Positions 3,191 to 39,400 of a DNA stretch of 64,000 nucleotides are shown one piece after another. The notes under the pieces are model-generated. The model worked only from the letters and a program-made list of their open reading frames with translations. It searched no databases and had not been told where the DNA came from. The stretch lies in the NCBI RefSeq assembly GCF_044324875.1, contig NZ_CP172185.1, one strand, 5' to 3'. This stretch comes from Escherichia coli. Its GTDB lineage: Bacteria; Pseudomonadota; Gammaproteobacteria; Enterobacterales; Enterobacteriaceae. The position numbers were made by a program, and so were the translations under genes. Numbering within the stretch: the stretch's first letter is position 1; the number at the start of each line of letters is the position of its first letter.

Positions 3191-3675
3191 ATGAACCGGT
3201 TTATTATTGCGGATGCGACGAAATGTATCGGTTGCCGTACCTGTGAAGTGGCTTGCGCAGTGTCGCATCAGGAGAATCAGGATTGCGCTGCGTTGTCACC
3301 AGACGAGTTTATTTCCCGTATTCGTGTTATTAAAGACCACAGCTGGACCACGGCTGGACCACGGCTGTAGCCTGCCATCAATGTGAAGATGCACCGTGCG
3401 CGAATGTCTGCCCTGTTGACGCGATAAGCCGCGAACATGGGCATATTTTCGTTGAACAATCACGTTGCATTGGCTGTAAAAGCTGTATGCTGGCTTGCCC
3501 GTTTGGTGCGATGGAGGTCGTTTCTTCGCGCAAAAAGGCGAGGGCGATTAAGTGCGATCTGTGCTGGCATCGGGCGACGGGACCGGCCTGTGTTGAAGCC
3601 TGCCCGACAAAGGCGTTGCAGTGCATGGATGTCGAGAAAGTGCAGCGACATCGGCTACGGCAGCAGCCTGTTTGA
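3191..3675 (+). pseudogene. ysaA: 4Fe-4S ferredoxin-type protein YsaA, frameshifted by an 11-bp tandem duplication
   Basis: RBS aggag then ATG 3191. Frame 2 (MNRFIIADATKCIGCRTCEVACAVSHQ…) stops at TAG 3368..3370; the C-terminal part continues in frame 1 to 3675 (…CPFGAMEVVSSRKKARAIKCDLCWHRATGPACVEACPTKALQC…). ctggaccacgg occurs twice in tandem at 3343..3364; deleting one copy gives a 157-codon ORF. Confidence 0.8.
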
Positions 3676-3714
3676 AACGTTTTTCCGGCGTTTCTCAACG
3701 CAGGGATAGTGCGC

Positions 3715-3830
3715 TTTGTTTATGCCGGATGCGGCTAAAACGCCTTATCCGGCCTACAAATTCTACCAAATTCAATATATTGCAGAAATCATGTAGGCCT
3801 GATAAGCGTAGCGCATCAGGCAATTTTTAG
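3715..3830. repeat. REP/BIME palindromic repeat cluster
   Basis: Inverted GC-rich palindromes of REP type (gccggatgcggc…, ccttatccggcctac…, gtaggcctgataagcg…cgcatcaggc) between the convergent ysaA and avtA. Confidence 0.7.
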
Positions 3831-5080
3831 TGACTTTCAGCCCAGGCTCTTTCTATCTCTTCTGCCAGAATCTTCACACCCGCCTCAATTTTCTCCGGCT
3901 CCGGCACGTAGTTCATGCGCATACATTGATGTGTATGTGGCCACGGTTTATCCAGCCCTGGGAAGAAGTTGTGCCCCGGCACCATCAGCACGCCCCGTGC
4001 TTTCAGGCGCTGGTAGAGCTGCTCGGTCGTAATTGGCAAATCCTTAAACCATAGCCAGAGGAAAATGGCTCCTTCGGGTTTATGAATCAGGCAGCGATCT
4101 TCCGGTAAATAGCGGCGAATGATAGCGATAGTTTCCTGAACACGCTGGTAGTAAAACGGTTTGATGACTGTTTCAGACAGGCGCAGCAGATCGTTACGCT
4201 TAATCATTTCACACATCATCGCCGGACCAATACCGCCAGGTGCCAGGCTGATAATGCCGTTCATATTGGTGATGGCGGTGATGATTTTTTCATTGGCGAT
4301 GATAATGCCGCAGCGGGAGCCAGGTAGCCCCAGCTTGGAAAGACTCATGCACAGTACGATATTCGGATTCCACAGCGGGCGCGCTTCGCTGAAGATGATA
4401 CCCGGGAACGGGACGCCATAAGCGTTATCAATCACCAGCGGAATGCCGTGTTGATTCGCCAGCGCGTCAAGCTTCAGCAACTCTTCGTCAGTAATCACAT
4501 TGCCTGTTGGATTCGTCGGCCGGGAGACGCAAATCATCCCGGTTTCTTCGCCAATATGCAGATGCTCAAAATCGACGTGGTATTTAAACTGGCCTTCCGG
4601 CAGCAGTTCAATATTCGGACGTGCAGAGACAAACAGATCTTCTTCCAGTCCGGCGTCAGCGTATCCAATGTATTCCGGTGCCAGCGGAAACAGCACTTTT
4701 TTGACCCGACCGTCGGCACGGCGTCCGGCGAACAGATTAAATAAGTAGAAAAACGCGCTCTGGCTGCCGTTTGTTAGTGCAATATTCTGTGGTTCGATAT
4801 CCCAACCCAACTTCTCGCGCAGCATTCCGGCAAGCAGTGTGAGTAGCTCCGTTTTCCCCTGTGGACCGTCGTAATTGCACAGTGCATCAGTCGCTTTGCC
4901 ACTTTCCAGCATGTCGGTCAGTAGCGTCTGGAAGTAGTCCTGCATTTCCGGGATCTGCGCTGGATTACCGCCGCCGAGCATAATCGCGCCAGGCGTGCGT
5001 AAACCGTCGTTCAGATCTTCCATCAGCAGCGTAATGCCGGAGTGGCGGGTAAATTTGTCACCAAAAAGGGAGAATGTCAT
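3827..5080 (-). CDS. avtA: valine-pyruvate aminotransferase
   Basis: ORF 3827..5185; the internal Met at 5080 gives the 417-aa protein MTFSLFGDKFTRHSGITLLMEDLNDGLRTPGAIMLGGGNPAQIP… recognised as AvtA. Confidence 0.9.
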   Translation of the reverse strand: MTFSLFGDKFTRHSGITLLMEDLNDGLRTPGAIMLGGGNPAQIPEMQDYFQTLLTDMLESGKATDALCNYDGPQGKTELLTLLAGMLREKLGWDIEPQNIALTNGSQSAFFYLFNLFAGRRADGRVKKVLFPLAPEYIGYADAGLEEDLFVSARPNIELLPEGQFKYHVDFEHLHIGEETGMICVSRPTNPTGNVITDEELLKLDALANQHGIPLVIDNAYGVPFPGIIFSEARPLWNPNIVLCMSLSKLGLPGSRCGIIIANEKIITAITNMNGIISLAPGGIGPAMMCEMIKRNDLLRLSETVIKPFYYQRVQETIAIIRRYLPEDRCLIHKPEGAIFLWLWFKDLPITTEQLYQRLKARGVLMVPGHNFFPGLDKPWPHTHQCMRMNYVPEPEKIEAGVKILAEEIERAWAESH

Positions 5081-5257
5081 AGCGGGATATCTGTCGAACT
5101 CTGTAGCAAGGAAGGTAACAATAACGCTACATTTGCTGGGGTGCAAATCGGTCTGTTGAAGAGTGAGCGGCGATTTATCCTGCAACGCTGATTAGGCCTG
5201 ACATTTTATCCTGGTTAGCGGCTTCCCGAGGTACTGACGAACGGGAAGCCGGAAAAG

Positions 5258-37996: not shown

Positions 37997-38051
37997 GCAT
38001 TTGTAGCTCATGAGGATGAGAACTTCCGGGGGCAGGGAGGTTCGACTCGAC

Positions 38052-39400
<1,349 letters not shown>

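What the first reader, a model, noticed from the sequence alone, without database searches (positions are those of the whole stretch)
3793..3803. Unoccupied exact match to the IS621 target motif in the ysaA-avtA REP cluster
Seen: the plus strand carries gtaggcctgat, which is ATCAGGCCTAC on the minus strand; this is the same 11-mer reconstructed from the two junctions of the IS621-type element at 38-39 kb. A one-mismatch variant (ATCCGGCCTAC) lies 45 bp away at 3747..3757. Inference: these are candidate secondary insertion sites for the resident bridge recombinase; an insertion here would sit between two convergent genes.
Basis: inference. Interest (0 to 1): 0.3.

Follow-up and report, generated by a model that had tools for sequence, protein, structure and literature searches.

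The report
Empty natural IS621 landing site (REP)
The 11-base motif is the tip of an ordinary E. coli REP repeat between ysaA and avtA. It is a real but empty landing site for the IS621 mobile element: 24 other sequenced E. coli genomes carry IS621 at exactly this position, and this behaviour of IS621 is already well documented.

Summary
ATCAGGCCTAC sits at 3793..3803 (-), and ATCCGGCCTAC at 3747..3757 on the opposite (+) strand. The two are the heads of two inverted REP units between convergent ysaA and avtA.

The resident element (38054..39335, -) is a complete IS621. Its 326-aa recombinase keeps D11, E60, D102, D105 and S241. Its 177-nt bridge RNA has guide segments identical to the published one. 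It is flanked by CT cores, and the empty proK-dppA site in another strain reads ATCAGGCCTAC.

Of 5,426 complete E. coli genomes, 24 have an IS621 left end fused base-exactly to this avtA-side REP. In strain GF47, removing the IS restores the window's sequence exactly around the site. The same 50-mer is already listed among natural targets in Durrant et al. 2024.

Two nuances apply. The guide encodes ATCGGGCCTAC, so the A at position 4 is the published tolerated rG:dT pair. The C variant is a weaker candidate. Its homologous position is occupied in two genomes where it reads ATCGGGCCTAC, and canonical IS621 sits at an ATCCGGCCTAC REP elsewhere.

Verdict: real, correctly interpreted, already known, low interest.

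The parts
3793..3803 (-). 11-nt IS621 target ATCAGGCCTAC. The CT core is at 3796/3795, and top-strand cleavage is expected between 3795 (T9) and 3794 (A10). Unoccupied in this window.
   Evidence: The same position is occupied in 24 genomes.
3793..3821 (-). REP unit GCCTGATGCGCTACGCTTATCAGGCCTAC on the avtA side, ending 5 nt from the avtA stop codon. It is the same REP subtype that the resident sub-variant's closest relatives used at gyrB-yidB and ybbP-dinQ.
   Evidence: (inverted repeats I3, I4).
3724..3757 (+). REP unit GCCGGATGCGGCTAAAACGCCTTATCCGGCCTAC on the ysaA side, inverted relative to the other unit.
   Evidence: I1, I2; weak naRNA4 match.
3747..3757 (+). Variant target ATCCGGCCTAC, with C at position 4. 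A weaker candidate; an insertion here would be in + orientation.
   Evidence: The homologous site is occupied in L002, where it reads ATCGGGCCTAC. Canonical IS621 sits at another ATCCGGCCTAC REP in L008.
3758..3792 (.). 35-bp linker between the two REP heads (AAATTCTACCAAATTCAATATATTGCAGAAATCAT), making the pair a BIME-type REP cluster.
   Evidence: Rfam ES036 matches 3758..3800 at 38.9 bits against a gathering score of 37.6.
3191..3675 (+). ysaA, convergent with avtA. It is frameshifted in this window by an 11-bp tandem duplication at about 3342..3352.
   Evidence: Annotation of homologs.
3827..5080 (-). avtA (valine--pyruvate transaminase). The start is inferred from the 1254-nt homologs.
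   Evidence: ORF 3827..5185. Annotations.
38054..39335 (-). Resident IS621 copy: a 1278-bp body plus a CT core at each end, lying between the proK region and a REP upstream of dppA.
   Evidence: Empty site in L006.
38161..39141 (-). IS621 recombinase gene, 326 aa. PF01548 and PF02371 both match. D11, E60, D102, D105, S241 and G242 are present. There are 4 substitutions relative to WP_000399648.1.
39142..39318 (-). Bridge RNA (177 nt as aligned; the alignment starts at position 2 of the published RNA). Relative to the published RNA there are 2 substitutions and 1 inserted base inside a small hairpin, plus A to T at position 1. All guide segments are identical.
   Evidence: Published sequence; alignment and fold.
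39262..39270 (-). Left target guide (LTG) AUCGGGCCU.
   Evidence: Pairing rule.
39239..39242 (-). Right target guide (RTG) GUAG, preceded by UGC (the possible extended RTG).

Best explanation
Window 3793..3803 (-) is the head of a REP unit. It belongs to a pair of inverted REP units between the convergent genes ysaA and avtA. The 11 bases ATCAGGCCTAC are the natural target of IS621, the E. coli bridge-RNA-guided IS110-family element, and one complete copy lies in this window at 38054..39335.

Mechanism, taken from the literature and applied here:
- IS621 excises as a circle, which rebuilds a promoter across the joined right and left ends (RE-LE).
- The 177-nt bridge RNA binds the recombinase.
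[quoted passage not shown] - The donor loop holds the circle junction ACAGTATCTTG.
- S241 cleaves after the CT core, and strand exchange inserts the element.

At this site the element would go in between 3795 and 3794. Its left end would face avtA and its recombinase gene would be co-oriented with avtA.

Shown here: the motif and its REP context; the integrity of the resident element and its guides; and real insertions at exactly this base, in this orientation, in other E. coli genomes. Inferred: that the resident copy in this strain is currently able to use the site.
For: - Motif and REP anatomy.
- Resident element: it has IS110-family domains, RefSeq annotates homologs as IS621, the catalytic residues are intact and the guides are identical to the published bridge RNA, and the donor junction is ACAGTATCT|TG.
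- Resident copy's own target: ATCAGGCCTAC, verified in the empty site of L006.
- Occupancy of this exact site: 24 genomes have the left junction. Both junctions are base-exact in L003, L005 and L010, which are simple avtA-IS621-ysaA insertions. Removing the IS from L010 gives a sequence identical to the window for about 90 nt across the site.
- Prior listing: the 50-mer CTGATGCGCTACGCTTATCAGGCCTACATGATTTCTGCAATATATTGAAT is entry TBL_ATCGGGCCTAC_seq228 in the Durrant 2024 supplement.
- Published specificity: in BL21(DE3), 129 of 173 experimental insertion sites were ATCAGGCCTAC and 144 were in REPs. The rG:dT pair at position 4 is described there.
- Mobility of the resident sub-variant: copies differing by 3-5 bases sit at gyrB-yidB, ybbP-dinQ and mtr-yhbW, all at ATCAGGCCTAC. 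The first two use the same REP subtype as this site.
Against: - There is no evidence of activity in this strain. Only one copy is visible in the 64 kb.
- Integration splits the element's promoter, according to the paper.
- The resident copy differs from canonical IS621 at 28 bases plus one indel. This includes 4 amino-acid changes, the first base of the bridge RNA and a hairpin inside the target loop. None of these variants has been tested.
- The site lacks the 3' GCA that flanked four of the ten most used sites in BL21. Here the flank is ATG.
- Occupancy is rare: 24 of 1,635 genomes with a near-full-length IS621 match. These genomes are not phylogenetically independent, and I saw only two flank haplotypes among them.
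Confidence: 0.9

Rival explanations
1. The motif is only a REP element doing REP things (mRNA 3'-end stabilisation, protein binding). In this strain it is irrelevant to IS621 because the resident copy is silent or defective.
For: - The motif is fully explained by REP membership.
- The promoter is split in the integrated state, per the paper.
- The resident copy has untested differences: 4 aa, base +1 of the RNA, and a hairpin.
- Only one copy is present in the window.
Against: - The recombinase ORF is full length and all catalytic residues are kept. All four guide segments are identical to the functional published RNA.
- Near-identical copies (3-5 differences) occupy at least four other loci in other strains, so this sub-variant has moved.
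- Being a REP and being an IS621 target are not exclusive. IS621 evolved to use REP heads.
Confidence: 0.2
2. The match is a chance 11-mer with no relation to the element.
For: None beyond the shortness of the motif.
Against: - Expected 0.03 exact matches per window.
- The motif lies in a canonical REP head.
- The same base position is used by IS621 in 24 genomes.
Confidence: 0.01
3. The neighbouring ATCCGGCCTAC (3747..3757, +) is as good a target as the exact motif.
For: - Position 4 is the mismatch-tolerant position.
- Canonical IS621 sits at an ATCCGGCCTAC REP in L008 and at ATCTGGCCTAC in L007.
- ATCCGGCCTAC targets appear in the paper's list for this guide: seq53, 54 and 834.
- The homologous position is occupied in L002.
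Against: - In the two genomes where the homologous site is occupied it reads ATCGGGCCTAC, a perfect guide match, not the window's sequence.
- By the pairing rule, C at position 4 puts dG opposite rG, unlike the rG:dT pair explained. This step is my inference.
- ATCAGGCCTAC plus ATCGGGCCTAC accounted for 96.2% of experimental insertions.
- A separate IS621 variant with LTG AUCCGGCCU exists for such REPs (L009).
Confidence: 0.1

Closest known systems
Natural IS621 target sites in E. coli REP elements (Choi et al. 2003, cited; Durrant et al. 2024, PMC11208160)
   Same: The 11-mer ATCAGGCCTAC is the same, as are the CT core at positions 8-9, the REP-head context and the extragenic position. The same guide is encoded by the resident element. 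This very 50-nt target is in the paper's natural-target list.
   Different: Nothing of substance differs. The site lacks the 3' GCA extension that marks the most used sites. The resident element is a sub-variant about 97.7% identical to the 1,277-bp reference.
BIME-type REP cluster: two inverted REP units with a conserved linker (family description from my own knowledge; Rfam ES036 and naRNA4 models)
   Same: Two inverted REP units of different subtypes separated by a 35-bp linker that matches Rfam ES036 above its gathering score. The cluster lies between convergent genes.
   Different: Protein binding to the linker or the REPs was not and cannot be tested here.
ISPpu9 / ISPpu10 of Pseudomonas putida, IS110-family elements associated with REP sequences (PMC12288879 and bioRxiv 10.64898/2026.03.19.712850; abstracts only)
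   Same: An IS110-family element in the same genome as REP repeats. The ISPpu9 abstract states that its copies are inserted into REP sequences.
   Different: Different host, different REP family and different element. The ISPpu10 abstract describes a distinct bridge-RNA architecture.

Membership tests
IS621 (IS110 family) - resident element 38054..39335 | [quoted passage not shown] | tested here: met
   (E 1.5e-24 and 8.9e-26). D11, E60, D102, D105 and S241 are present.
IS621 (IS110 family) - resident element 38054..39335 | Left-end-encoded ~177-nt bridge RNA with target- and donor-binding loops | tested here: met
   Aligned to the published 177-nt RNA with 2 substitutions and 1 insertion in a hairpin, plus a change at base 1. 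LTG, RTG, LDG and RDG segments are identical.
IS621 (IS110 family) - resident element 38054..39335 | CT core at both junctions, donor junction ACAGTATCTTG, and an insertion that reconstructs to the target | tested here: met
   The empty site in L006 reads ATCAGGCCTAC.
IS621 (IS110 family) - resident element 38054..39335 | Nucleotide identity to the IS621 reference and the same annotation in RefSeq | tested here: met
   28 mismatches plus 1 indel over 1,278 bp against copies whose bridge-RNA region matches the published sequence. PGAP name: 'IS110-like element IS621 family transposase'.
IS621 (IS110 family) - resident element 38054..39335 | Recombination activity of this copy | not testable with these tools
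   Indirect only: near-identical copies sit at at least four other loci.
Natural IS621 target site - window 3793..3803 | 11-nt sequence matching the guide-specified target, allowing the known position-4 rG:dT pair, with a CT core at positions 8-9 | tested here: met
Natural IS621 target site - window 3793..3803 | Actually used by IS621 in nature at the homologous position | tested here: met
   24 genomes. Junctions read in L001, L003, L004, L005 and L010. Listed in the published supplement.
Natural IS621 target site - window 3793..3803 | 3' flank GCA allowing a 7-bp extended RTG pairing (a feature of the most used sites, not a requirement) | tested here: not met
   The flank is ATG.
REP / BIME - window 3724..3821 | Extragenic imperfect palindromes of about 30-35 nt with a GTAG/CTAC head, occurring as inverted pairs | tested here: met
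   Rfam ES036 scores above its gathering score on the linker, and naRNA4 gives a weak match.

The most novel reading that the evidence does not exclude
The avtA-side IS621 site may be a recurrent breakpoint for large chromosomal rearrangements. In strains 2014C-3061 and 7.1994/NIST0056 the IS621 at this REP is joined on its right end to the flank of a distant REP locus (the yiiF side and the ugpB side). In several other genomes the two halves of the site lie hundreds of kb apart. The evidence does not exclude that some of these arose by bridge-RNA-guided recombination in cis between the element and a distant REP target, rather than by ordinary homologous recombination between two IS621 copies.
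Probability: 0.2. Interest if true: 0.35.

Novelty: already known. Interest (0 to 1): 0.1.

Why it matters
It matters little beyond annotation. The result shows that a reader working from sequence alone correctly recognised an IS621 element, rebuilt its target, and found a second, empty copy of that target. Population data confirm that this exact site is used. For this genome, the ysaA-avtA REP pair can be flagged as a likely place for new IS621 insertions, and for IS-associated rearrangements of the kind seen in a few strains. An insertion there falls between two convergent genes, 31 nt beyond the avtA stop, so it should disrupt no coding sequence. The biology is already published: REP targeting by IS621, the 11-nt target, and the position-4 rG:dT tolerance.

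Tried and rejected
1. Rfam search of the resident element's left end. No bridge-RNA family was reported; the only matches were tRNA-Pro and REP-derived naRNA4. I identified the bridge RNA instead by aligning to the published sequence from the paper's supplement.

2. Counting right-hand junctions at site A with a chimeric query. This gave 1,258 genomes at 80% coverage or more. The figure is inflated because the REP-pair linker and the second REP are repeated around the genome, so only the top 23 hits (92.9-96.8% identity) correspond to this locus.

3. Counting occupancy of the resident proK-dppA site with the window's own junction. This was confounded in the same way by the repetitive flank (838 genomes, no full-length match), so I did not use it.

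4. Looking for the published table of the 173 BL21(DE3) insertion sites, to see whether the avtA site was hit experimentally. No supplementary file held as text had the expected content.

5. The original IS621 paper (Choi et al. 2003, PMC166490) is not held. I cite it only through Durrant 2024.

6. A promoter and terminator scan of 3600..3900 found nothing. A simple regex for a sigma-70 promoter at the RE-LE circle junction did not pass at two mismatches or fewer per hexamer. The promoter-reconstitution step therefore rests on the paper, not on my scan.

7. Chance as an explanation was rejected.

Full report
**1. The observation**

The + strand at 3793..3803 reads gtaggcctgat, which is ATCAGGCCTAC on the - strand. 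It is the only exact copy in the window. Three one-mismatch copies exist:
- ATCCGGCCTAC at 3747..3757, on the + strand and so inverted relative to the exact copy
- ATCTGGCCTAC at 49384..49394 (-)
- ATCATGCCTAC at 59457..59467 (-)

That is four matches against 0.65 expected, and no shuffle reached four. An exact 11-mer is expected 0.03 times per window.

**2. Local anatomy**

The two motifs are the heads of two inverted REP units:
- GCCGGATGCGGCTAAAACGCCTTATCCGGCCTAC at 3724..3757 (+)
- GCCTGATGCGCTACGCTTATCAGGCCTAC at 3821..3793 (-)

A 35-bp linker separates them. The linker matches Rfam ES036 at 38.9 bits against a gathering score of 37.6, and one REP gives a weak naRNA4 match. This is a typical REP pair (BIME type; the name comes from my own knowledge).

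The pair lies between ysaA (3191..3675, +) and avtA (3827..about 5080, -), which are convergent (homolog annotations). The excess over chance therefore has an ordinary cause: the motif belongs to a repeat family.

**3. The resident element**

The ORF at 38161..39141 (-) encodes 326 aa with PF01548 and PF02371. RefSeq annotates its homologs as 'IS110-like element IS621 family transposase'. 2,244 of 5,426 complete E. coli genomes have a match, with a median of 5 places per genome.

- **Junctions.** On the - strand the left junction is ...CTTATCAGGCCT|TGTATTATCC and the right junction is ...CCATAACAGTATCT|ACGTCGAG. The element therefore spans 38054..39335 including both CT cores, the circle junction would be ACAGTATCTTG, and the reconstructed target is ATCAGGCCTAC.
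- **Empty site.** I searched for the reconstructed empty site. Strain MS20657 has it between dppA and tRNA-Pro, reading ...GCGTCTTATCAGGCCTACGTCGAGTCGAACC....
- **Recombinase.** It keeps D11, E60, D102, D105 and S241, the residues shown to be essential. It differs from WP_000399648.1 at four positions.
- **Bridge RNA.** The published 177-nt IS621 bridge RNA (supplement) aligns to 39318..39142 (-). There are two substitutions and one inserted base in a small hairpin, and a change at base 1. The guides are unchanged: LTG AUCGGGCCU at 39270..39262, RTG GUAG at 39242..39239, and the donor guides.
- **Sub-variant.** The copy differs from canonical 1,277-bp copies at 28 bases plus one indel.
- **Evidence it has moved.** Copies differing from it by only 3-5 bases sit at gyrB-yidB, ybbP-dinQ and mtr-yhbW in other strains, each at ATCAGGCCTAC. 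A further copy at rsmS-mscK is interrupted by an IS200/IS605 transposase gene, and its target lacks one G.

**4. What the literature says**

Durrant et al. 2024 (PMC11208160) report the following.
- IS110 elements excise as circles, and this rebuilds a promoter across RE-LE.
- The wild-type IS621 guide encodes ATCGGGCCTAC, but the natural target is ATCAGGCCTAC.
- In BL21(DE3), 173 insertion sites were mapped. 144 were in REPs, 129 were ATCAGGCCTAC and 2 were ATCGGGCCTAC. Those two sequences together took 96.21% of insertions.
- The position-4 mismatch is an rG:dT pair.
- Four of the ten most used sites had a 3' GCA that extends RTG pairing.

Hiraizumi et al. 2024 (PMC11208158) place top-strand cleavage between T9 and A10.

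The exact motif is therefore the preferred natural target, not a perfect complement of the guide. Site A has ATG rather than GCA after the motif.

**5. Direct test of the inference**

I built a chimeric query from 76 nt of the avtA-side flank ending in ATCAGGCCT, followed by the first 75 nt of the IS621 left end.
- 24 genomes contain it over at least 80% of its length, and every one lies at the avtA 3' end.
- In L003, L005 and L010 the order is avtA-IS621-ysaA. Both junctions fall exactly at ...TTATCAGGCCT|IS|CTACAT....
- Removing the IS and one CT from L010 gives a sequence identical to the window for about 90 nt across the site.
- The right-junction search recovered the same strains. For most of them the position was about 1.28 kb from the left junction, as expected for a simple insertion.
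- The 50-mer across the site is entry TBL_ATCGGGCCTAC_seq228 in the paper's list of natural targets. The variant flank seen in L003 and L005 is seq7.

Occupancy is 24 of 1,635 genomes with a near-full-length match. As a rough, non-independent comparison, a median of 5 places spread over more than 130 suitable sites per genome gives a similar order of magnitude. This looks like an ordinary member of the target class rather than a hotspot; that reading is my inference.

**6. The one-mismatch neighbour**

The analogous chimeric query found two genomes covering the ysaA-specific flank. In L002 the order is ysaA-IS621-avtA in + orientation, but there the target reads ATCGGGCCTAC. Elsewhere:
- Canonical IS621 sits at an ATCCGGCCTAC REP in L008 (araJ-mak).
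- Canonical IS621 sits at ATCTGGCCTAC in L007 (gntP-fimH).
- L009 carries an IS621 variant whose LTG itself reads ATCCGGCCU, sitting at an ATCCGGCCTAC REP. A bridge RNA of that type is already in the paper's alignment.

The variant is therefore a possible but weaker target for the resident guide. C at position 4 would put dG opposite rG, which is my inference from the pairing rule.

**7. Verdict**

It restates known biology: REP-head targeting by IS621, with this very site already catalogued. Nothing here shows that the resident copy is active in this strain. Novelty: already known. Interest: low.

**8. Side observations**

- ysaA is frameshifted by an 11-bp duplication.
- In several strains the IS621 at this site marks a rearrangement breakpoint.
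- ATCTGGCCTAC at 49384..49394 lies inside a 559-aa ORF.

Noticed in passing
window 3191..3675 (+), duplication at about 3342..3352: ysaA carries an 11-bp tandem duplication (GCTGGACCACG) relative to the intact gene in strain 23CRST007. This shifts the frame and splits the ORF into pieces of 61 and 62 aa, so the gene is probably a pseudogene in this strain.
   Followed up: partly
L001 (NZ_CP027548.1) and L004 (NZ_CP116241.1); also H90 and H93: The IS621 at the avtA REP is joined on its right end to the flank of a different REP locus (the yiiF side in 2014C-3061, the ugpB side in 7.1994/NIST0056). The matching right half of the avtA site lies 140-380 kb away. These are large rearrangements with IS621 at the breakpoint.
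   Followed up: partly
L009 (NZ_CM177019.1, waaH-tdh intergenic): An IS621 variant whose left target guide reads ATCCGGCCU instead of AUCGGGCCU sits in an ATCCGGCCTAC REP. This is a natural case of guide and target changing together. A bridge RNA of this type is already in the Durrant 2024 alignment (supplement file 11).
   Followed up: partly
window 49384..49394 (-): ATCTGGCCTAC, which differs from the target only at the tolerant position 4, lies on the coding strand inside the 559-aa ORF 49076..50755 (-). From its position next to the dpp operon I take this ORF to be BcsG-like, but I did not test that. It is a non-REP candidate off-target. Canonical IS621 does sit at an ATCTGGCCTAC site in L007.
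   Followed up: partly
window 38003..38053 and L006: The 50 bp between the proK terminator and the resident IS (GTCGAGTCGAACCTCCCTGCCCCCGGAAG...GAGCTAC on the - strand) are native to the locus. The best matches to the reconstructed empty site in other genomes are annotated 'RtT sRNA', so this stretch belongs to a repeat that also occurs next to other REPs. The same right flank appears 14 times in the paper's target list.
   Followed up: partly
L015 (NZ_LR778147.1, rsmS-mscK): A copy of the resident sub-variant has an IS200/IS605 transposase gene inserted near its right end. Its reconstructed target lacks one G (ATCAG-CCTAC).
   Followed up: no
window 3758..3800 (+): The linker between the two REP units scores just above the Rfam gathering threshold for ES036 (CssrF) sRNA: 38.9 bits against 37.6. 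That family model appears to capture the REP-pair linker repeat.
   Followed up: no
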